Positions 1,681 through 62,448 of a DNA stretch of 64,000 bases are shown piece after piece. The stretch's first letter is position 1. The number at the start of each line of letters is the position of its first letter. The position numbers and the translations under genes were made by a program. The stretch comes from a virus (Duplodnaviria > Heunggongvirae > Uroviricota > Caudoviricetes). The notes beneath the pieces were generated by a model. It saw only the letters and a list, made by a program, of their open reading frames with translations, was not told the origin of the DNA and did no database searches. The stretch is from the IMG/VR virus record IMGVR_UViG_2654587772_000002; one strand, written 5' to 3'.

Positions 1681-1752
1681 AAGTTCCCTCCTACGTTGTC
1701 AGGAGGTAATGGTATGCAAAGTAACTTCTCAACCGGTCATGTTACTTGACAT

Positions 1753-1778
1753 CCTCCACGTCCTTTAGAGCGTGGAGG
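1753..1778. other. Perfect 8-bp stem / 10-nt loop hairpin immediately 5' of intron-like GTGCG
   Basis: cctccacg-tcctttagag-cgtggagg; 4 nt upstream of GTGCGCCC at 1783. Confidence 0.5.
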
Positions 1779-1782
1779 ATGT

Positions 1783-2640
1783 GTGCGCCCAGCATGGGCG
1801 CGATCTTGGAGGTGAAAGCCCTCCCGCGAGCTGACCACAGCGAGCGAAAGGAAGTGCAACTGCGTGAGGGCGGCTAGGCGTGGGGAGGAAGCACGGAATG
1901 AACCCGTGAGCCGATGAACAAGAATCGGATATGAGGCGCGATGGAGCAAGGCGAGCAGGCACATCACTGCGAAGCTTTCGTGACAAAGTCGCGTAGATCC
2001 GACGGTTGTGCGGGGAAGGATCGCGTTCTTACCTGGGGAGTTCTCGCCTCATGCCTGAAAGGGCAACGTCGTAAGACGGAGCGAGAAGTCAGCAGAGGCC
2101 GTAGTAGTCAGGACTCCGACGAAGGGCCGAACGAGAAGGAAAGCCAAAAGATATGACTCTTGACAGGACATTGCGTCAGAAGCCGGGGAAGCCCGGTACG
2201 GACCCGCATGCCGGGTGGTGTGGCAGGGGCGCAGCCTTGTGCTCCCCCCTATGCCGATCAAGCAGAACATTGTGCTGGGCCTCTGACGCATCTCCTTGAT
2301 GGTCTTGGCATCGTGCTTAAGTGGATTGGTGTCGTCTCTGATAGGCTCATGGAGGCAGAATGAAACTCAAAAATCCGGGACAGCACGCAAAACAGGCTGC
2401 ACAAAAAGCGCAGGTTGCGTAGGAGTGGAATCCCGCTCCCAAAAAATGGTGCAGAAGTTGCGGCAGTGGTCATCCGACGCACTGGAAAATAACAAACCCG
2501 CCGTGACCAGAATCGGAGGCCTGAGGGAGTGACCGTAAAACCGGATAACCCAGGCAGCAAATACCCGCTGGATGAGGCATGGTTCCGGCAGATAATACCG
2601 AAAACCGCCAGACACACTGGATAATCAGTAGAAATAACCC
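1783..2640 (+). ncRNA. Group II intron 5' fragment (ribozyme domains I-III plus decayed start of the RT/maturase ORF), truncated at the 3' side
   Basis: Begins GTGCGCCCAG as group II introns do; GC-rich, no long ORF on either strand; short frames near 2430-2640 read like RT N-terminal remnants (..NKPAVTRIGG.., ..RQIIPKTARH..); ends abruptly at AT-rich DNA. Confidence 0.45.
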
Positions 2641-2651
2641 ATTAAAATCAT

Positions 2652-2657
2652 TATAAT
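2652..2657 (+). promoter_or_regulatory. Candidate -10 element (TATAAT) for the acetyltransferase moron
   Basis: tataat about 22 nt upstream of ATG at 2679 in AT-rich leader; -35 is weak. Confidence 0.3.
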
Positions 2658-2678
2658 AATTGGGCACATTATTATATT

Positions 2679-3242
2679 ATGCTGAATAATAGAGACATGA
2701 ATATTAATGAACTTAAAGACTGTATTCACTATGAAGTAATCGGTAGCGAGCGTCCTTTCTCCTGGCGAAAGGCAATTGTTCGCGCAATAAAACATAGAAG
2801 AGTTCGTTATTTATTTTGGTGGCGCATAGCCAAATACCTTTTTGATAAAGGCGGATACTGTCGGAAGATTGCGGGGAAAATGGAACGTTTCATTCTTGAT
2901 AAATATAGTGTAACAGTCCCTTTAACTGTAAATATAGGGAAAGGCTTTGATATTTCTTATCTCAACGGTGTTGTTATCGGTCACAAAGTAACCATTGGTG
3001 AAAATTGTTCAATAAAACCAGGGGTAACTATTGGGCTACGTGGTGATTTTAATGATATGGATATTGTTATAGGACATAATGTGACCATTGGTTGTAATGC
3101 CACCATTCTTGGTGGCAAAGTGCGTATAGGAAACAATGTCACAATAGGTGCTCATGCATTGGTATTGCATGATATTCCTGATGATTCAACATTCATCACT
3201 AAATTTCAGTCTGAAGTTATCTGCTCGTCCTCTTGCACATAA
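2679..3242 (+). CDS. Hexapeptide-repeat (left-handed beta-helix) acetyltransferase; candidate surface-polysaccharide O-acetyltransferase moron
   Basis: Tandem [LIV]-G-x-x-x-x hexapeptide repeats ([53 protein letters not shown]); AT-rich; convergent with tfa, 3' ends overlap 37 nt. Confidence 0.75.
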
Positions 3243-3823
3243 CCCTGATTCATCAGCTCTGGCCATACGATATCCGGAGCTGTACTGGTGTCAATTCGAC
3301 TCACTAATACTCTGTATTTTCTCCAGGAATCCAGTTGTGAATTTTCCTCGGTTGTTGCTATTTCAAGATTAACTGCATCCTGCAGAATTGCGATGTTATC
3401 TGTTGCCTCCTGAATCAACCTTGCCTTTTTCTCTTCCGCTTCCCGTATCCGAAACAGTTTTTCTGCTTCCTCATCCTTCACCCAGGATACGCCGTCCCAC
3501 TTCTGATACTCCCCTGCTGGCGACAACCAGGTGACATTCTCTGGTAACGGTCCGAGTTCAGAAATAAACAACGCGTCCCCCGATGCCACGTCATAGACCG
3601 TTTTACCACGATGGTCTTCAACAATAATCCATGATTCATTTTCACTGTTAAAAACTGCCACAAAGCCAGCAGGAATTTCCGGTGGGGCGATATCTGTAGA
3701 ATTAGCTGGTAGCCCTGTATGAGGTGGAATATATGCGTCACCTTCACCAATAAACTCATTAGTTCCGGCGAGCAGGTTATAAATTTTTACAGTACGTGAT
3801 TGTTCACTCATTCTGAATGCCAT
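3206..3823 (-). CDS. tfa: Tail fibre assembly protein (lambda Tfa-like)
   Basis: N-terminus [48 protein letters not shown] matches lambda Tfa as recalled. Confidence 0.85.
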
Positions 3824-4713
3824 TATGCAAGCCTCACAATATAATTAAATGCGATGTTTTTAACGGTGTTTTCCGAGTTACCAGCAGCGTTAACGGTGAT
3901 GGTGTGTCCATGTGAACCAATCGCAACAGAGTGCGTATGAGCGCCAATATCAACTGTATGTGCATGCGCCCCTGCACTTGCAGCGGTGCCTGATACTGAG
4001 TGGGTGTGTGCACCAGAAGAAGGCACAGTTCCATTCCCCACCACAGTGCCGCTTGATGAGCCATCAAGCCAGTCGAAATTCATACCGCCACCATCTGGTC
4101 TCCTTAATGGAACGGTATGAGTATGTGCGCCAGCACTATTTGCAGTACCAGATACATTGTGGGTATGTGCACCTGTGTTATTCGTTGATTTAGTACCGTA
4201 ATCAAACGAAGATGTGGTTTTCGTACCCAAATCCGTATTGGATGCGCTGGCGCTGTGGGTGTGCGATTTAATGCCATCCTGTTCCAGAGACAATACGTCC
4301 CGACCACTGGCGGGTTTGCCCTTGATTGTCCAGCCACGCATATCCGGGATCACGCCTGACGGATAAGCGGCTGCAAGTTTCGGGTATGCAGATTTGTCAA
4401 AAGTCTGTCCCTGCATCAGGGCGTAACCAGACGGCACAGTATCTGATGGCCACGGATGCGGAACACCAACAGGAAGGACCTCAATATCCCCGGAACCATC
4501 AAACGAAACGTTATTAATTTTACGGGCTGTTTTCAGCTTTGTAGCCGTTGAGGCATTGCCGGACAGCTCACCAGAAATGCCACCAACAACTGTTAGATCA
4601 CCAGTTATTGTGCCGCCTGAACTTTCCAGTTTTTTAGCAACATCACTCTTAATAGAGTCGATTTCTTTTTTCAGATTAGTTATATCTGCTGGTATCGTTG
4701 TCACTGTTGCCAT
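3823..4713 (-). CDS. stf: Side tail fibre C-terminal module (lambda Stf-like) with its own start
   Basis: [52 protein letters not shown] ... GAHTH repeats ... [31 protein letters not shown] match lambda Stf C-terminus. Confidence 0.8.
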
Positions 4714-4722
4714 ATTAATTCC

Positions 4723-5001
4723 TTACGCCCATTCCCGCAGCGGTTGTTCTAATTGAACTTCAAAACCATCAAACATTTGTTGTTTCAAACTGTTGTTTAA
4801 AATACGAACATTAACGAAGAAGCCATCATTTTTAATCACTGTTGGTTCTTCGTTCTCGCCGTTTGGTATTTCGGTATATGTAACACCTACAACATCAAGA
4901 AGAATGTTGTTTTGCAGCTCTTCATTATCGTGCCAGGATATACTCTCTAAAAAAGAGTCGTATTCTGCCCTGTCTCTGAATTTCAACGTGATATCTTTCA
5001 T
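4723..5001 (-). CDS. Hypothetical protein; possible chaperone for the upstream fibre
   Basis: 92-aa ORF immediately downstream of the large fibre gene (1-nt stop/start overlap); no family recognised. Confidence 0.3.
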   Translation of the reverse strand: MKDITLKFRDRAEYDSFLESISWHDNEELQNNILLDVVGVTYTEIPNGENEEPTVIKNDGFFVNVRILNNSLKQQMFDGFEVQLEQPLREWA

Positions 5002-7901
5002 TAAATAACCTCAGCCATTTGTTGGTCTGTTAATGCTTTATGCCATATTCTGAAATTTCTGATATGACCAAATAAATGACGTAACCCTGCTGTAGTCTGG
5101 CCTCCAATACGGATGGTTGCAGAGTTCTGAATATAGGACCATGTCGTCTTTGTTTCGCTGGATATGCGCCCGTTACTTACTGAGCACGTAGACTGATCTG
5201 ATTTTACACGCATCCCCATAACCATTTTTTCAAGCAATGCGTTTTCGTTTACCCGTCTGTTAGCTCCTCCAATATCGCAATAAGGAAATCCGTCGTAATC
5301 TGCTGAAGAACCGAAGCCAAGAATAATAGCCGCTCCGGTTTGATGACCGCCGGTATCAAAAACACGTGGCGCTGCATTTGGCGTTTTATACCAGTTCTTA
5401 TGTACCTCACAAAGAACCGTAAAAGGAAGATTATAAAGATTATTATTAATTGGAACTGTAACTATATCGCTTGCGCGGGTAGCCGCCGTCGTTCCCGAGA
5501 TAATAAAAGATGATGCACACGAACCATCCTCAACCTGAGGGGTGGACAGATAAATATAGTCTCCAGATATGGTTGCTCCGCCCTGCTTAGGAGAATACTG
5601 TATCTGAGATCCTATTTTTAACTCATCATCAATTGCCTGGATTGTTGCCTCTGCAAAAATCCATCCGGTAGCTTCGTCCTTTCTGACTCTCGCTGTAATC
5701 CTTGAGGCCGCGCCACCTGTCATATTAATTTCAAGCGTTTGTGTATCAATATATGCATCACCAAGAAAAGTTGTTGCACTACCGTCATATTTATCAAAGC
5801 GGATACGTAACCTTACCTGTCGTTCTGTTTTAAAACGACATGAGGTTGTCACGTACTTGTTATCGCCTGAAACATCAACTGACTTTGTAGCAGCAATTGA
5901 TGCCATATTAATGGCTGACGTTTGCCCAATCAGAGAATCGTTACAGACAAACTTTCCATAGGTAAAACCAAAACTATCCGTCCCGGTTTCGGGAACATCC
6001 ATATTTGACGAGCGCCCCCAACTGGCAGGGTTTTCCGAATTGAGCATGTAGTTTGTTCGTTGTCCCTCAATAAGCAGACCATCACGTTCAAATCGTGGCT
6101 CGTCAATGGCAGCCTCTGTCAGCACACCAGATTTATTTATATAGGTTGCTTTCGATGCGCGTTTAAACTTAACAACCTTGTCGCCAGGCATTGTTATTTC
6201 GTCGTCGCCAATAACAATCTTTTTATATGATGGAGAAAAGCCCGCAATCATATCCAGCGAATCGTTAAACGGTATCCACACATCTGGCAGCGGTTGAATA
6301 ATCTTCCTGGCATCCTCCAGTGACAATGCTTCGACATCCGAAGCTGTTAAAGAAATATCTGCCGAACCGTCAAATGAAACGTTGTTAATCATCCGTGCTG
6401 TTTTTAATTTCGTTGCGGTGTCGGCGTTCCCCATCAGTGCGCCGGTGATCCCGCCGTTGAAAGTCTGGCGTGCACTCCATGTGTTAGCCGTGCTCAACAG
6501 GGGGATCTTTTCACCGCTTGTGCCGAGTTCTCTTAAACCAAGGTATTGGATAACAGCAAGGACGCTTGTTTTGGACAGAATATCGCGACCGACTGACGTT
6601 AAGTCAGTCTGAGAAACAGTGTCTGTACCGGTAAAGTACGGCAGTTTATTTGCGCCTGTAGCAAGACCAGCAAGCGCGGTTAAAGTTGCATCCAGAGGCT
6701 GTTTGCCTGCCAGCGCATTTGTCATTGTTGTCGCAAAGTTCGGGTCATTACCAAGTGCTGCGGCAAGCTCATTCAGGGTATCAAGAGCTTCTGGTGATGA
6801 ACCAACCAATGCGGATATGGCAGCTCTTACATAAGCAGTCGTAGCAATCTGCGTATTATTTGTGCCCTGCGCAGCCGTAGGCGCAGTAGGGACTCCCGTT
6901 AATGCAGGGCTTGCCAAAGGCGCTTTGAGGGCTAGGGCATTGTTGATAGTTGTGCTGAAATTCGGGTCGTTATTGATCGCAGCAGCTATTTCTTTAAGCG
7001 TATCCAGTGTGCCAGGTGCACCGTTGATAAGTGCCGTTATAGCTGACTTAACAAAGGCTGTATTTGCGATCTGCGTGCTATTTGTACCTTGCGCTGCCGT
7101 CGGCGCGGTTGGCGTTCCTGTCAGACTCGGGCTTTCTATTGGCGCTTTGGTATCAGCAAGACCTTTTACAGACTTAACGGCTTTAGGGGTAGCCGCCATT
7201 GTTTCGCTGTCGCTGTTAGTTTCGCTACTGAGCTGAACTAATCCCTTTTGCGTTGTGCTTGCATCCTGTGCCGTATACTTGCTTTTCGCCAGATCGTAGG
7301 CTTTTTTAGCTGCCAGCGAACTTGCAGCAACATCACTTCTGCTACTGGTTACAGAGTCTGAAATATCAATGCCGATCGTGCGGTTAATACGCTCGGATGT
7401 ATCAATCATCTCCTGGGTAATGGCTGATACGCCAGCAGGGATATTCACCGTACAAACAAGCAGCTCTCCATCTCCTAACTGATATGAATCGGTATAGGTT
7501 CTGGCAACAAATTCAGCCGCATGAATATGTGACGCGGTATTAACCTGATAGGTATCCTCTCCAAGGAGGTATCTTCCCTTCAGCACAATTGCATATTTCT
7601 TGCCTTCACTAAGTGCAAGAGAAATATCCTTACGGTGCCGAATAGTTACCTGGTAGAATTCACCAATATCCACTGACGCAGCGCCAGCAGTTTTATCACC
7701 ATCCACTGAGGTGATTAACAGGTTCATACCACCGCCAGGCTTCGGCAGGAAACCGGCATAAAACCCAGGATCAACAATTCCCCTGAATTTTCGGTTTAGC
7801 GCGGCTGACAGATATGGTTCGTGGTATTGCACATCAGCCACCAGAGCCAGTGACTCGGGCGATGGGTAAGTAACTGATGTAACAACTGTAACGTCATTCA
7901 T
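5001..7901 (-). CDS. Tail fibre protein with Stf-type collagen-like repeats and a distinct C-terminal (lectin/LamG-like?) receptor-binding domain
   Basis: Repeated PL(A/D)SPxLTG(T/V)PTAPTAAQGTNxTQIA(N/T)TA(F/Y)V units and GLVQLSSETNSDSETMAATPKAVK as in lambda Stf; start set at internal ATG (MNDVTVV) just after the upstream stop; ORF-track start 7988 overlaps the previous gene. Confidence 0.8.
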   Translation of the reverse strand: MNDVTVVTSVTYPSPESLALVADVQYHEPYLSAALNRKFRGIVDPGFYAGFLPKPGGGMNLLITSVDGDKTAGAASVDIGEFYQVTIRHRKDISLALSEGKKYAIVLKGRYLLGEDTYQVNTASHIHAAEFVARTYTDSYQLGDGELLVCTVNIPAGVSAITQEMIDTSERINRTIGIDISDSVTSSRSDVAASSLAAKKAYDLAKSKYTAQDASTTQKGLVQLSSETNSDSETMAATPKAVKSVKGLADTKAPIESPSLTGTPTAPTAAQGTNSTQIANTAFVKSAITALINGAPGTLDTLKEIAAAINNDPNFSTTINNALALKAPLASPALTGVPTAPTAAQGTNNTQIATTAYVRAAISALVGSSPEALDTLNELAAALGNDPNFATTMTNALAGKQPLDATLTALAGLATGANKLPYFTGTDTVSQTDLTSVGRDILSKTSVLAVIQYLGLRELGTSGEKIPLLSTANTWSARQTFNGGITGALMGNADTATKLKTARMINNVSFDGSADISLTASDVEALSLEDARKIIQPLPDVWIPFNDSLDMIAGFSPSYKKIVIGDDEITMPGDKVVKFKRASKATYINKSGVLTEAAIDEPRFERDGLLIEGQRTNYMLNSENPASWGRSSNMDVPETGTDSFGFTYGKFVCNDSLIGQTSAINMASIAATKSVDVSGDNKYVTTSCRFKTERQVRLRIRFDKYDGSATTFLGDAYIDTQTLEINMTGGAASRITARVRKDEATGWIFAEATIQAIDDELKIGSQIQYSPKQGGATISGDYIYLSTPQVEDGSCASSFIISGTTAATRASDIVTVPINNNLYNLPFTVLCEVHKNWYKTPNAAPRVFDTGGHQTGAAIILGFGSSADYDGFPYCDIGGANRRVNENALLEKMVMGMRVKSDQSTCSVSNGRISSETKTTWSYIQNSATIRIGGQTTAGLRHLFGHIRNFRIWHKALTDQQMAEVI

Positions 7902-7912
7902 CAAGCATATCC

Positions 7913-8347
7913 TTATGCTATAGTCGTGTTGATGGCCATAACTGCGGTATATGTTTTTCCCACATACAGCGAGTCTTCCTGAACACAAATAATTGCGATG
8001 GGCTTATTCTCGTTATCCAGAACAACCAGAGTGTTGAATGGATAGTTTTTCCCTTCCTGCAACTGGCTTTGATCAAGGTCCATTCGGACAGTAATTATCC
8101 CGCCAGAGTAGGTTGGGACGAGGTTGATGGTGCAAAATTGACTGGTCAGTTCTGCCAACTCGAAAGTCTTTGGCAGTTCTCCAATGTCATAAGTACCATC
8201 TTCATTTTTGGTAACCAGCGAACTGGTGCCGAAAACGGCCTTGCTGATTAAAAATCGAGAGCCTTTGTTAATGGACGATTCAGCGCGTCGCTGATAGTAA
8301 TAATCCAACAACTGACTCTTATAGAGATTTGTTGAGACGTCAGACAT
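7913..8347 (-). CDS. Hypothetical virion-associated protein
   Basis: 144-aa ORF in co-directional operon immediately upstream of the tail fibre. Confidence 0.4.
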   Translation of the reverse strand: MSDVSTNLYKSQLLDYYYQRRAESSINKGSRFLISKAVFGTSSLVTKNEDGTYDIGELPKTFELAELTSQFCTINLVPTYSGGIITVRMDLDQSQLQEGKNYPFNTLVVLDNENKPIAIICVQEDSLYVGKTYTAVMAINTTIA

Positions 8348-43745: not shown

Positions 43746-44332
43746 TTTTCCTCACATATGTCATATAGTAAAGGATTATATATACCGTTGTTTTGGACGC
43801 TCAAACAGCGAATCAGATCAAATAAAACGCACATTTGTTAACATTTACACAAAGTCTGCGTGGGATATTCTGAAAGAATATCCATAATGTGGAGAGAATC
43901 TATTGAAGTGCATGGTGCCGGGTGCCTCCCGGTGAACAAAATGTTCGTGATACCTGTCGGCGACAGAAAAGGTTAATGGTATCACCCCACCGCACAGGGG
44001 GATTCACCATGCAGGAGTTTTCTTAGCAAACTCACTGCGCGCCCGGCAACTCCCAACCACATAAAATGCGGAGTTTGTGGTATTTATGCATATAACTCGC
44101 AGGAATTATCTTAAAAAACTGATGTCGATCCGGATTAAAAAGAAGCAGGTCATCATCAGATGACTGGAAAAAAGGAAAACAAAAAATACTCATCATACAG
44201 TTTTGATTGCAGGGATGAGCCTGCTATGCACAATATGCAGAATATAAGCAAGATAAAAATATGCAGGCATATTATTTCGGATTTTGTTATTAACACAACC
44301 TTTTTAATAATCATTTGGCATACAATAAACCA

Positions 44333-62072: not shown

Positions 62073-62267
62073 ATGCGGTATGAAAAAGTCAAACCATGCC
62101 CTTTTTGTGGTTGTCTATCAGTAACGGTAAAAGCCATTTCAGGATATTACCGCGCGAAGTGTAACGGATGCGAATCCCGAACCGGCTATGGTGGAAGTGA
62201 AAAAGAAGCACTCGAACGATGGAATAAACGAACCACTGGAAATAATAATGGAGGTGTTCATGTATAA
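62073..62267 (+). CDS. ralR: Restriction alleviation protein Lar/RalR
   Basis: 64 aa, MRY..VKPCPFCGC.SVTVKAISGYYRAKCNGCESRTGYGGSEKEALERWNKRT Cys4 motif. Confidence 0.8.
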   Translation: MRYEKVKPCPFCGCLSVTVKAISGYYRAKCNGCESRTGYGGSEKEALERWNKRTTGNNNGGVHV

Positions 62268-62448
62268 AATTACCGCCACTATTGAAAAGGAAGGTGGCAC
62301 TCCTACTAACTGGACAAGGTACTCAAAAACAAAATTAACCAAATCAGAATGCGAAAAAATGCTCTCAGGTAAAAAAGAAGCAGGCGGTTCCAGAGAGCAG
62401 AAAGTAAAACTGATAAATTTTAATTGCGAGAAACTTCAGTCGTCGTGA
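62260..62448 (+). CDS. ydaC: YdaC-like small protein
   Basis: 62-aa ORF from ATG at 62260 overlapping ralR 3' end. Confidence 0.45.
   Translation: MYKITATIEKEGGTPTNWTRYSKTKLTKSECEKMLSGKKEAGGSREQKVKLINFNCEKLQSS

What the first reader, a model, noticed from the sequence alone, without database searches (positions are those of the whole stretch)
1753..2640. Decayed group II intron 5' fragment inserted just after a stem-loop
A perfect 8-bp hairpin (1753-1778) is followed 4 nt later by GTGCGCCCAG, the characteristic group II intron 5' end. The next ~850 nt are GC-rich and have no long ORF on either strand, as expected for ribozyme domains I-III. Short frames near 2430-2640 read like the beginning of an intron-encoded reverse transcriptase interrupted by stops and frame changes, and the element ends abruptly where the AT-rich acetyltransferase moron begins. 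Insertion directly downstream of a stem-loop is the known target preference of class C group II introns. This looks like a truncated, inactive intron, possibly cut by the later moron insertion.
Basis: partly seen in the sequence, partly recalled or inferred. Interest (0 to 1): 0.6.

Follow-up and report, generated by a model that had tools for sequence, protein, structure and literature searches.

The report
Internally deleted class C intron relic
A 476-base, gene-less and probably dead copy of a class C group II intron sits right after a hairpin in a P1-like prophage: an ordinary decaying mobile-element relic, though the hairpin is the kind that ends IS200/IS605 (TnpB) transposons.

Summary
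The 5' end is real. GTGCGCCCAG at 1783 follows a perfect 12-bp hairpin (1749-1782), and Rfam group II models hit 1864-2028 and 2046-2127. An intron-less sister plasmid shows that the insertion is exactly 1783-2258 (476 nt) and keeps both intron ends. A full-length relative (1832 nt, 456-aa reverse transcriptase) shows that the window copy lost 1350 nt between two GCCCGG repeats. That deletion removed the protein gene apart from its first 15 codons (2153-2197) and damaged domain V. Window 2263-2502 is a frameshifted fragment of a phage tail tape-measure gene, not a reverse transcriptase. The acetyltransferase gene did not cut the intron. Class C is supported: the relative's protein best matches GsI-IIC RT, and the RNA has a CGC triad, a short domain V, the AGGAA motif, and a 5-bp EBS1-IBS1 pairing next to a stem-loop. 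All 35 plasmid copies share the same junction and the same site, so there is no sign that the deleted form moves. Side finding: the hairpin is the right-end hairpin type of IS200/IS605 TnpB elements. Intact relatives occupy that same position in several phyla.

The parts
1749..1782 (+). Target stem-loop. It has a perfect 12-bp stem (1749-1760 / 1771-1782) and a 10-nt loop, and it resembles the right-end hairpin of IS609-like IS200/IS605 elements. There is no T-run.
   Evidence: Sequence; fold z = -5.5; not flagged as a terminator; a 31-nt match occurs 13 nt after the insQ/TnpB stop codon in L013 and L015
1778..1782 (+). IBS1 (GATGT), the last 5 nt of the 5' exon. Here it is buried in the lower part of the stem.
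   Evidence: It is complementary to EBS1 ACAUC at 1961-1965. The pairing covaries with the Leclercia relative, which has EBS1 AUAAAA and a 5' exon ending TTTTAT
1783..2258 (+). Internally deleted (ORF-less) class C group II intron, 476 nt, with both ends intact
   Evidence: Empty-site comparison with L004; two-piece match to the full-length intron L002 4029-5860
1864..2028 (+). Domain I core (Rfam group-II-D1D4-3). It includes the class C AGGAA motif at 1886-1890 and the EBS1 loop at 1959-1966. It carries a 6-nt deletion and a GACCGG-to-GGCTAG change that are specific to this window.
2046..2127 (+). Domains II-III with the J2/3 junction (Rfam group-II-D1D4-1)
2129..2190 (+). Remnant of the 5' side of domain IV, with the ribosome-binding site and the start of the intron protein gene. 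The ATG is at 2153, and the first 15 codons span 2153-2197.
   Evidence: tblastn finds 14 of 15 identical residues to the start of the L002 IEP
2191..2196 (+). Deletion junction. This is the single GCCCGG left from two copies (L002 4443-4448 and 5793-5798); 1350 nt are missing between them.
   Evidence: the same junction is present in L008 and L009
2189..2218 (+). Domain V (30 nt), damaged. Positions 1 and 2 are changed C to A, so the CGC triad reads AGC opposite G. A G-to-A change at 2198 breaks the 3-bp distal stem.
   Evidence: D5 is 100% identical in four ORF-bearing copies, three from E. coli, Leclercia and Vibrio with an intact ORF (L002, L017, L018) and L005, whose ORF is split. The canonical D5 structure scores -20.4 kcal/mol in the full-length copy and -11.2 here
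2221..2258 (+). Domain VI with a bulged A at 2251, 8 nt from the 3' end. The intron ends ...GCCGAT.
2259..2261 (+). First bases of the 3' exon (CAA). C2259 is the presumed IBS3. Together with T1782 these bases read TCAA, the end motif of the IS right end.
   Evidence: Empty sites read GGATGT|CAA in L003 and L004. The same 3' exon start is seen in L002, L005, L023 and L026
2263..2502 (+). Not intron. This is a frameshifted internal fragment of a phage tail tape-measure gene.
   Evidence: it is also present in the intron-less L004
2697..3242 (+). Context only. This is the acetyltransferase gene, with its own promoter-like sites at 2629-2690. It is unrelated to the intron boundary.

Best explanation
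A class C (IIC) group II intron reverse-spliced into the site GGATGT|CAA, immediately 3' of a stem-loop. The site lies in the intergenic spacer between lydA and an acetyltransferase moron of a P1-like phage-plasmid lineage. A 1350-nt DNA deletion between two GCCCGG repeats then removed the reverse-transcriptase/maturase gene, the 3' strand of the domain IV stem and the first bases of domain V. The result is a 476-nt ORF-less copy with intact 5' and 3' ends. It has since been inherited passively with the plasmid module and is decaying. It most likely neither splices nor moves. Shown here: the exact boundaries, the deletion, class C identity, the shared junction in all copies, and the damage to domain V. 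Inferred: retrohoming as the mode of arrival, and present inactivity.
For: Boundaries. Window 1700-1782 matches L004 3919-4001 and window 2258-2700 matches L004 4001-4449, with nothing in between in L004.

Full-length relative. L002 4029-5860 is 1832 nt. Window 1755-2196 matches L002 4001-4448 at 96.2%, and window 2191-2261 matches L002 5793-5863 at 95.8%.

Intron protein. The L002 IEP is 456 aa with RVT_1 and GIIM domains and no Pfam endonuclease-domain hit. Its best solved relatives are GsI-IIC RT (E = 8e-129) and the E. rectale and R. intestinalis IIC RTs. IIB (2e-42) and IIA (6.5e-38) proteins score far lower.

Class C RNA features, as defined in PMC1702495. The full-length D5 has a CGC triad and a 3-bp distal stem. 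The AGGAA motif is at 1886-1890. EBS1 ACAUC pairs with IBS1 GAUGU directly after a stem-loop, and this pairing covaries with a Leclercia relative.

Single origin. L008, L009 and the window share the same junction and the same D5 G-to-A change. The 35 plasmid records that hold the whole 476 nt equal in number the 35 that hold it with the P1-type flanks.

Decay. The window copy has an extra 6-nt deletion and a cluster of substitutions in domain I. D5 differs at 3 positions from a sequence that is invariant in four ORF-bearing copies, and each change breaks a pair.

No helper. Only 3 of 5426 E. coli genomes have a full-length copy, and this chromosome record has a single place matching the query. 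There is no promoter-like site upstream on the + strand.
Against: Catalytic inactivity is inferred from sequence only. An AGC triad is the norm in IIA and IIB introns, and ORF-less group II introns can be spliced or mobilised in trans in other systems. Rfam's domain V/VI model (RF00029) hits neither the window nor the full-length copy, so it cannot judge D5 integrity. One base at the boundary is ambiguous, because T occurs both at 1782 and at 2258. The order of events (insertion first, deletion second) is the simplest reading, but insertion of an already deleted RNA is not excluded.
Confidence: 0.9

Rival explanations
1. This is a 5' fragment of a class C intron (domains I-III plus the start of the RT gene) that runs to about 2640 and was truncated by insertion of the AT-rich acetyltransferase moron.
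For: The 5' end and the Rfam D1-D4 hits are real. GC content drops sharply at about 2640.
Against: Domains V and VI and the 3' splice site are present at 2189-2258. Window 2259-2700 is collinear with an intron-less plasmid. Window 2263-2502 is a tape-measure gene fragment, and there is no RT similarity beyond 2197.
Confidence: 0.02
2. A functional non-autonomous mini-intron. The ORF-less 476-nt RNA still folds and splices, and it can be mobilised by a maturase/RT supplied in trans from a full-length copy.
For: Both ends, EBS1, domains I-III and domain VI with its branch A are retained. A second, independent internal-deletion copy that keeps both ends exists in F plasmids, and a third lies between ygiV and parC.
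Against: Every copy with this junction is at the same site, in the same flanks. D5 has three pair-breaking changes at positions that are invariant in ORF-bearing copies. The 3' strand of the domain IV stem is gone. Differences among the three aligned copies are scattered through intron and flank alike. Full-length helpers are nearly absent from E. coli, at 3 of 5426 genomes. The F-plasmid and ygiV-parC copies are visibly more decayed.
Confidence: 0.06
3. An exapted structured RNA. The relic has been kept because it serves the phage-plasmid, for example as a 5' leader or insulator for the acetyltransferase gene or for the lydA late promoter.
For: It has persisted in at least 35 plasmids and 30 E. 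coli genomes.
Against: Sister plasmids with the same genes lack it. The acetyltransferase gene has its own promoter-like sites 370 nt downstream of the intron, and no promoter-like site lies upstream of the intron. Differences among the aligned copies are scattered through intron and flank alike, with no sign of extra conservation.
Confidence: 0.02

Closest known systems
Bacterial class C (IIC) group II introns, e.g. B.h.I1 of Bacillus halodurans and GsI-IIC of Geobacillus stearothermophilus
   Same: Small ribozyme. The full-length copy has 376 nt before the ORF and 85 nt after it. The IEP lacks an endonuclease domain and is closest to GsI-IIC RT. The RNA has a CGC triad, a domain V distal stem 2 bp shorter than in IIA/IIB, the AGGAA motif, a short EBS1-IBS1 pairing, no IBS2, and a stem-loop where IBS2 would be.
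   Different: The stem-loop is not an intrinsic terminator, since it has no T-run. IBS1 is GAUGU rather than a U-run. The window copy lacks the ORF and has a damaged domain V. Relatives at about 80% identity in Leclercia and Vibrio do sit after canonical terminators.
ORF-less or internally deleted group II intron copies, and the intron 'fragments' catalogued in Enterobacteriales (PMC3522654)
   Same: A degenerate copy on a large mobile element, single in its genome, with free target sites left unoccupied. This fits the pattern of inactivated copies riding on MGEs described in that survey.
   Different: That survey lists class C introns only in Dickeya and Sodalis, not in E. coli. Here both ends are kept and the deletion endpoints (GCCCGG repeats) are identified.
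IStrons (group I intron fused to IS200/IS605-type TnpB elements; PMC4227781, PMC10690162)
   Same: This comparison concerns the side finding only. A self-splicing intron is physically associated with the right end and guide-RNA region of TnpB transposons.
   Different: Here the intron is group II class C with its own reverse transcriptase. It is inserted 3 nt inside the right end rather than forming the body of the element. The window itself contains no TnpB.

Membership tests
Group II intron | 5' GUGYG start and a covariance-model match to domains I-IV | tested here: met
   GUGCG at 1783; RF02001 95.5 bits and RF01998 46.8 bits, both above their gathering scores
Group II intron | Domain V hairpin with a catalytic triad and a 2-nt bulge; domain VI with a bulged A 7-8 nt from the 3' end | tested here: inconclusive
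   Domain VI and A2251 are present. Domain V is recognisable, but 3 of its 30 positions are changed and break pairs. RF00029 gives no hit, but it also gives none on the full-length copy.
Group II intron | Intron-encoded RT/maturase in domain IV | tested here: not met
   Only 15 codons remain in the window. The full-length relative L002 has a 456-aa RVT_1 + GIIM protein. The window copy is therefore a defective derivative.
Class C (IIC) group II intron | The IEP groups with class C RTs and lacks the En domain | tested here: met
   Tested on the full-length relative: GsI-IIC RT E = 8e-129, against IIB 2e-42 and IIA 6.5e-38. Pfam finds only RVT_1 and GIIM. No formal phylogeny was made.
Class C (IIC) group II intron | Domain V distal stem 2 bp shorter; CGC in place of the AGC triad (PMC1702495) | tested here: met
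   The full-length D5 is 30 nt with a 3-bp distal stem and a CGC triad. In the window the triad reads AGC, because of the deletion junction.
Class C (IIC) group II intron | Conserved AGGAA in the epsilon-prime region | tested here: met
   AGGAA at 1886-1890, aligned to the conserved AAGGAA of RF02001
Class C (IIC) group II intron | No EBS2/IBS2; a short EBS1-IBS1 pairing; a stem-loop at the IBS2 position | tested here: met
   EBS1 ACAUC (1961-1965) pairs with GAUGU (1778-1782), and the stem-loop lies directly upstream. The pairing covaries with relative L017. Absence of EBS2 was judged only by a manual look for complementarity.
Class C (IIC) group II intron | Insertion downstream of an intrinsic terminator (inverted repeat followed by Ts) | tested here: not met
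   There is no T-run and the hairpin is not flagged. The literature also allows 'other inverted repeats' (PMC1702495 abstract), so this does not exclude membership.
Class C (IIC) group II intron | Self-splicing and retromobility | not testable with these tools
   This needs splicing and mobility assays.
IS200/IS605 right end (for the stem-loop) | Subterminal hairpin followed by a TCAA-type end, just downstream of tnpB | tested here: inconclusive
   The hairpin and TCAA match the sequence found 13 nt after the insQ stop codon in L013 and L015, and in L002 and L005. The window has no tnpB, P1 homology ends at about 1740-1743, and the 5' arm differs. At most it is a stray right-end tip.

The most novel reading that the evidence does not exclude
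The intron belongs to a class C lineage that has switched from transcription terminators to the right-end hairpin of IS200/IS605 TnpB elements. It inserts at GGAGGATGT|CAA, 3 nt inside the transposon end. By established knowledge of TnpB guide RNAs, that position lies between the guide-RNA scaffold and the guide. The hairpin in the window would then be a stray right-end tip that was colonised in the same way. Intact copies occupy this exact position behind TnpB genes in E. coli and, in the 9 true loci from the species-representative scan, in Gamma- and Betaproteobacteria, Verrucomicrobia and Nitrospirota. The hairpin stems differ between loci but keep pairing. Such an intron would be co-transcribed with the guide RNA and might depend on it or interfere with it. 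I found no description of this in the searchable literature.
Probability: 0.5. Interest if true: 0.55.

Novelty: new member of a known kind. Interest (0 to 1): 0.3.

Why it matters
The window element itself is a routine decaying retroelement copy. Its value is a correct annotation: 476 nt with both ends present, not coding, and not linked to the moron. It also provides a clean natural example of how a group II intron loses its ORF, through a repeat-mediated deletion that clips domain V. The broader point is the target. If a IIC lineage really homes into the right ends of TnpB transposons across phyla, it adds a group II counterpart to the group I IStron-TnpB association. It would also widen the known range of single-strand hairpins used by IIC introns, which so far comprises terminators and attC sites.

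Tried and rejected
1. RmInt1/class D idea. The many Sinorhizobium plasmid hits first suggested RmInt1. I rejected this. The IEP is closest to IIC RTs, the RNA has IIC features, and S. meliloti is reported to carry a class C intron on pSymB (PMC5894124).

2. Rfam RF00029 (domain V/VI). It gave no hit at E up to 10 in either the window or the full-length copy. It is therefore uninformative about D5 damage, and I compared D5 directly instead.

3. Megablast of 1740-2680 against the phage collection gave no match. A more sensitive search showed that P1/P7 homology stops at about window 1740-1743, so reference P1 lacks both the hairpin and the module.

4. MAFFT placed the empty-site flank against the intron 5' end. 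Pairwise blastn gave the correct boundaries.

I replaced it with tblastn using the IEP and the tape-measure protein.

6. Terminator hypothesis for the hairpin. Rejected, because there is no T-run on either strand.

7. Looking for the same deletion junction at other sites. None was found in the plasmid collection.

8. My recollection that the sequence resembles the Oceanobacillus iheyensis IIC intron served only as a lead. It is not used as evidence.

Full report
**Observation**

The sequence at 1741-1790 reads gttacttgACATCCTCCACGtcctttagagCGTGGAGGATGT|GTGCGCCC. Folded as RNA it gives -23.5 kcal/mol, z = -5.5, and none of 200 shuffles fold as well. Rfam places two group II models above their gathering scores on the + strand. 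RF02001 (D1D4-3) hits 1864-2028 at 95.5 bits and E = 4e-18. RF01998 (D1D4-1) hits 2046-2127 at 46.8 bits. The group II 5' end after a hairpin is therefore real and far beyond chance.

**True extent**

The region is 100% identical to E. coli ST2747 chromosome NZ_CP007393.1. It recurs at 97-99.6% identity in about 30 E. coli genomes, mostly on 90-115 kb P1-like (IncY-type) plasmids.

One sister plasmid, pMB18359_2 (L004), has the same lydA holin, the same acetyltransferase and the same spacer, but no intron. Window 1700-1782 equals L004 3919-4001, and window 2258-2700 equals L004 4001-4449. The insertion is therefore exactly 1783-2258, 476 nt, in the site GGATGT|CAAG. One T at the boundary is ambiguous. 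A second intron-less plasmid (L003) has the same hairpin and CAA followed by unrelated DNA.

**Full-length relative and the deletion**

E. coli MFDS1022581 (L002) carries an 1832-nt intron at 4029-5860, with a 456-aa ltrA gene. The window matches it in two pieces. Window 1755-2196 matches L002 4001-4448 at 96.2%. Window 2191-2261 matches L002 5793-5863 at 95.8%. The overlap is GCCCGG, which is present at L002 4443-4448 and again at 5793-5798.

So 1350 nt were lost between two 6-nt direct repeats. The deletion removed the ORF after codon 15, the 3' strand of the domain IV stem, and the first bases of domain V. tblastn with the full IEP finds only MTLDRTLRQKPGKPG, at 2153-2197, anywhere in 1700-2700.

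**What 2259-2640 is**

It is not intron. Window 2263-2456 is about 80% identical to an internal part of a phage tail tape-measure gene. At protein level the similarity continues to about 2502, but it hops across three frames and contains a stop codon. The acetyltransferase gene (2697-3242) has its own promoter-like sites at 2629-2690. It did not truncate the intron.

**Class**

- The L002 IEP has RVT_1 and GIIM domains and no Pfam endonuclease-domain hit.
- Its best solved relatives are GsI-IIC RT (E = 8e-129), the E. rectale IIC RNP protein (3.5e-92), and the R. intestinalis and E. rectale IIC RT fragments (about 1e-78). A IIB protein scores 2e-42 and LtrA (IIA) 6.5e-38.
- Toor et al. (PMC1702495) define IIC ribozymes by small size, a domain V distal stem 2 bp shorter, CGC instead of AGC, a conserved AGGAA near epsilon-prime, a 3-4 bp EBS1-IBS1 pairing, no EBS2, and a stem-loop in place of IBS2.
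- The full-length D5 is CCGCCCGGU-GCG-GACC-CGC-AU-GCCGGGUGG: 30 nt, a CGC triad and a 3-bp distal stem.
- AGGAA is at 1886-1890.
- The loop GCACAUCA (1959-1966) offers ACAUC to pair with GAUGU (1778-1782).
- A Leclercia relative at about 80% identity has AUAAAA in the same loop and a 5' exon ending UUUUAU. This is a clean covariation.

Class C is supported. My initial suspicion of RmInt1/class D, raised by the Sinorhizobium hits, was dropped.

**State of the window copy**

L008, L009 and the window share the same GCCCGG junction and the same G-to-A change at 2198. In the plasmid collection, the 35 records that contain the whole 476 nt equal in number the 35 that contain it with the P1-type flanks. 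This points to one ancestral event and gives no sign that the deleted form has moved.

D5 is identical in four ORF-bearing copies, L002 and L005 from E. coli plus Leclercia and Vibrio (L005's ORF is split into two CDSs). The window differs from it at three positions, and each change breaks a pair. The energy of the canonical D5 structure falls from -20.4 to -11.2 kcal/mol. The z-score of the D5-D6 segment falls from -2.8 to -0.2.

The window copy alone also has a 6-nt deletion and a GACCGG-to-GGCTAG change in domain I. Only 3 of 5426 E. coli genomes hold a full-length copy, and this chromosome record has one place matching the query. No promoter-like site lies upstream of the intron on the + strand. 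I conclude that it is a passively inherited relic that is most likely inactive. The inactivity is inferred, not shown.

**The stem-loop**

It is not a terminator. There is no T-run on either strand and the scan does not flag it. P1/P7 homology ends at about 1740-1743, just before it.

The 31-mer TCCACGTCCTTyAGrGCGTGGAGGATGTCAA occurs about 10,400 times in 4942 of 5426 E. coli genomes. In the two intron-free places I inspected (L013, L015) it lies 13 nt after the stop codon of insQ (TnpB) of IS200/IS605 elements. In L002 it aligns to the 3' end of Rfam sot0042.

The near-full-length E. coli copies examined (L002 and L005; L016 was checked only at its 5' junction) all sit at this position behind tnpB. 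The window hairpin shares the 3' arm, the loop and TCAA with these, but it has a perfected 5' arm and no tnpB. The tape-measure fragment starts right after TCAAG. This is what one would expect if an IS right end once abutted that gene.

**Wider pattern (side finding)**

An exact scan for GGAGGATGT|GTGCGCCCAGC in one genome per species returned 10 loci, 9 of them true. They come from Pantoea, Cupriavidus, Methylotenera, Alcaligenaceae, other proteobacterial MAGs, Verrucomicrobia, Methylacidiphilaceae and Nitrospirota.

In every true locus the intron follows a stem-loop, 8-9 bp in most, plus a largely unpaired GGAGGATGT. The stem sequences differ between loci but keep pairing. The upstream ORFs are TnpB by Pfam where enough sequence is held. 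The 3' exons begin CAA. Relatives at about 80% identity in Leclercia and Vibrio sit after ordinary terminators. I found no paper linking IIC introns to IS605/TnpB right ends. Non-open-access literature and the intron database could not be checked.

**Verdict**

The finding is a real class C group II intron relic, but it was mis-measured and its history misread. As an object it is ordinary: a new member of a known kind, interest about 0.3. The target-site observation is the part worth following up.

Noticed in passing
L002 3985-4031; L005 2985-3028; L016 2466-2500; L013 and L015 2501-2531; L020-L029: Full-length relatives of this intron sit at GGAGGATGT|CAA, 3 nt inside the right end of IS200/IS605 TnpB elements. 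This holds in E. coli and in the 9 true loci of a species-wide scan, which span several phyla. The hairpin stems vary between loci but keep pairing. The pattern looks like a IIC lineage specialised on TnpB right ends.
   Followed up: partly
L011 2484-2729 (E. coli M8; between ygiV and parC); the same place in L012: About 1360 E. coli chromosomes (a quarter of complete genomes) carry a relic of the same intron. It consists of GTGCGCC joined to the last ~225 nt (end of the ORF, domains V and VI), and it is followed by CAAG. It is unannotated in the records I inspected.
   Followed up: partly
L006 2500-2823 (IncF plasmid CP099137.1, upstream of sopA): This is a second, independent and more decayed internal-deletion copy: about 190 nt of the 5' end joined to about 115 nt of the 3' end. 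It lies behind a decayed version of the same hairpin and recurs in many IncF plasmids.
   Followed up: partly
L017 about 4330-4350 and the second ltrA at 4762 (Leclercia plasmid pIMP-Z96-1): A second IIC intron (GTGCGCCAGGCATGG...) starts within a few bases of the 3' end of the first. The two appear to form a tandem pair.
   Followed up: no
window about 13,770 (record NZ_CP007393.1 about 2,139,027): The P1-like segment (window 1 to about 13,770) abuts a complete Rac-like lambdoid prophage (about 13,770-61,075, at ttcA) inside truncated tail-fibre genes. P1-like elements are normally plasmids, so this is either a tail-fibre recombinant or an assembly chimera.
   Followed up: partly
window 62266-62444 (-) and 43856-44042 (-): Rfam gathering-score hits to RalA (the antitoxin sRNA of RalR, 212 bits) and to STnc100 (86.6 bits), both inside the Rac-like prophage.
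   Followed up: no
window 3823-4713 and 5001-7988 (-); L001 8084-10576: The tail-fibre genes of the P1-like segment are annotated in RefSeq as incomplete pseudogenes. The cin invertase and invertible C segment of reference P1 are replaced here by the module made of the hairpin, the tape-measure fragment and the acetyltransferase gene.
   Followed up: no
L014 2501-2539 (E. coli GB089 prophage, between a methylase gene and a LexA-family repressor gene): Another solo copy of the extended hairpin (87.5% identity over 40 nt), with no tnpB annotated within 2.5 kb. Such right-end-like hairpins occur as orphans in phage DNA.
   Followed up: no
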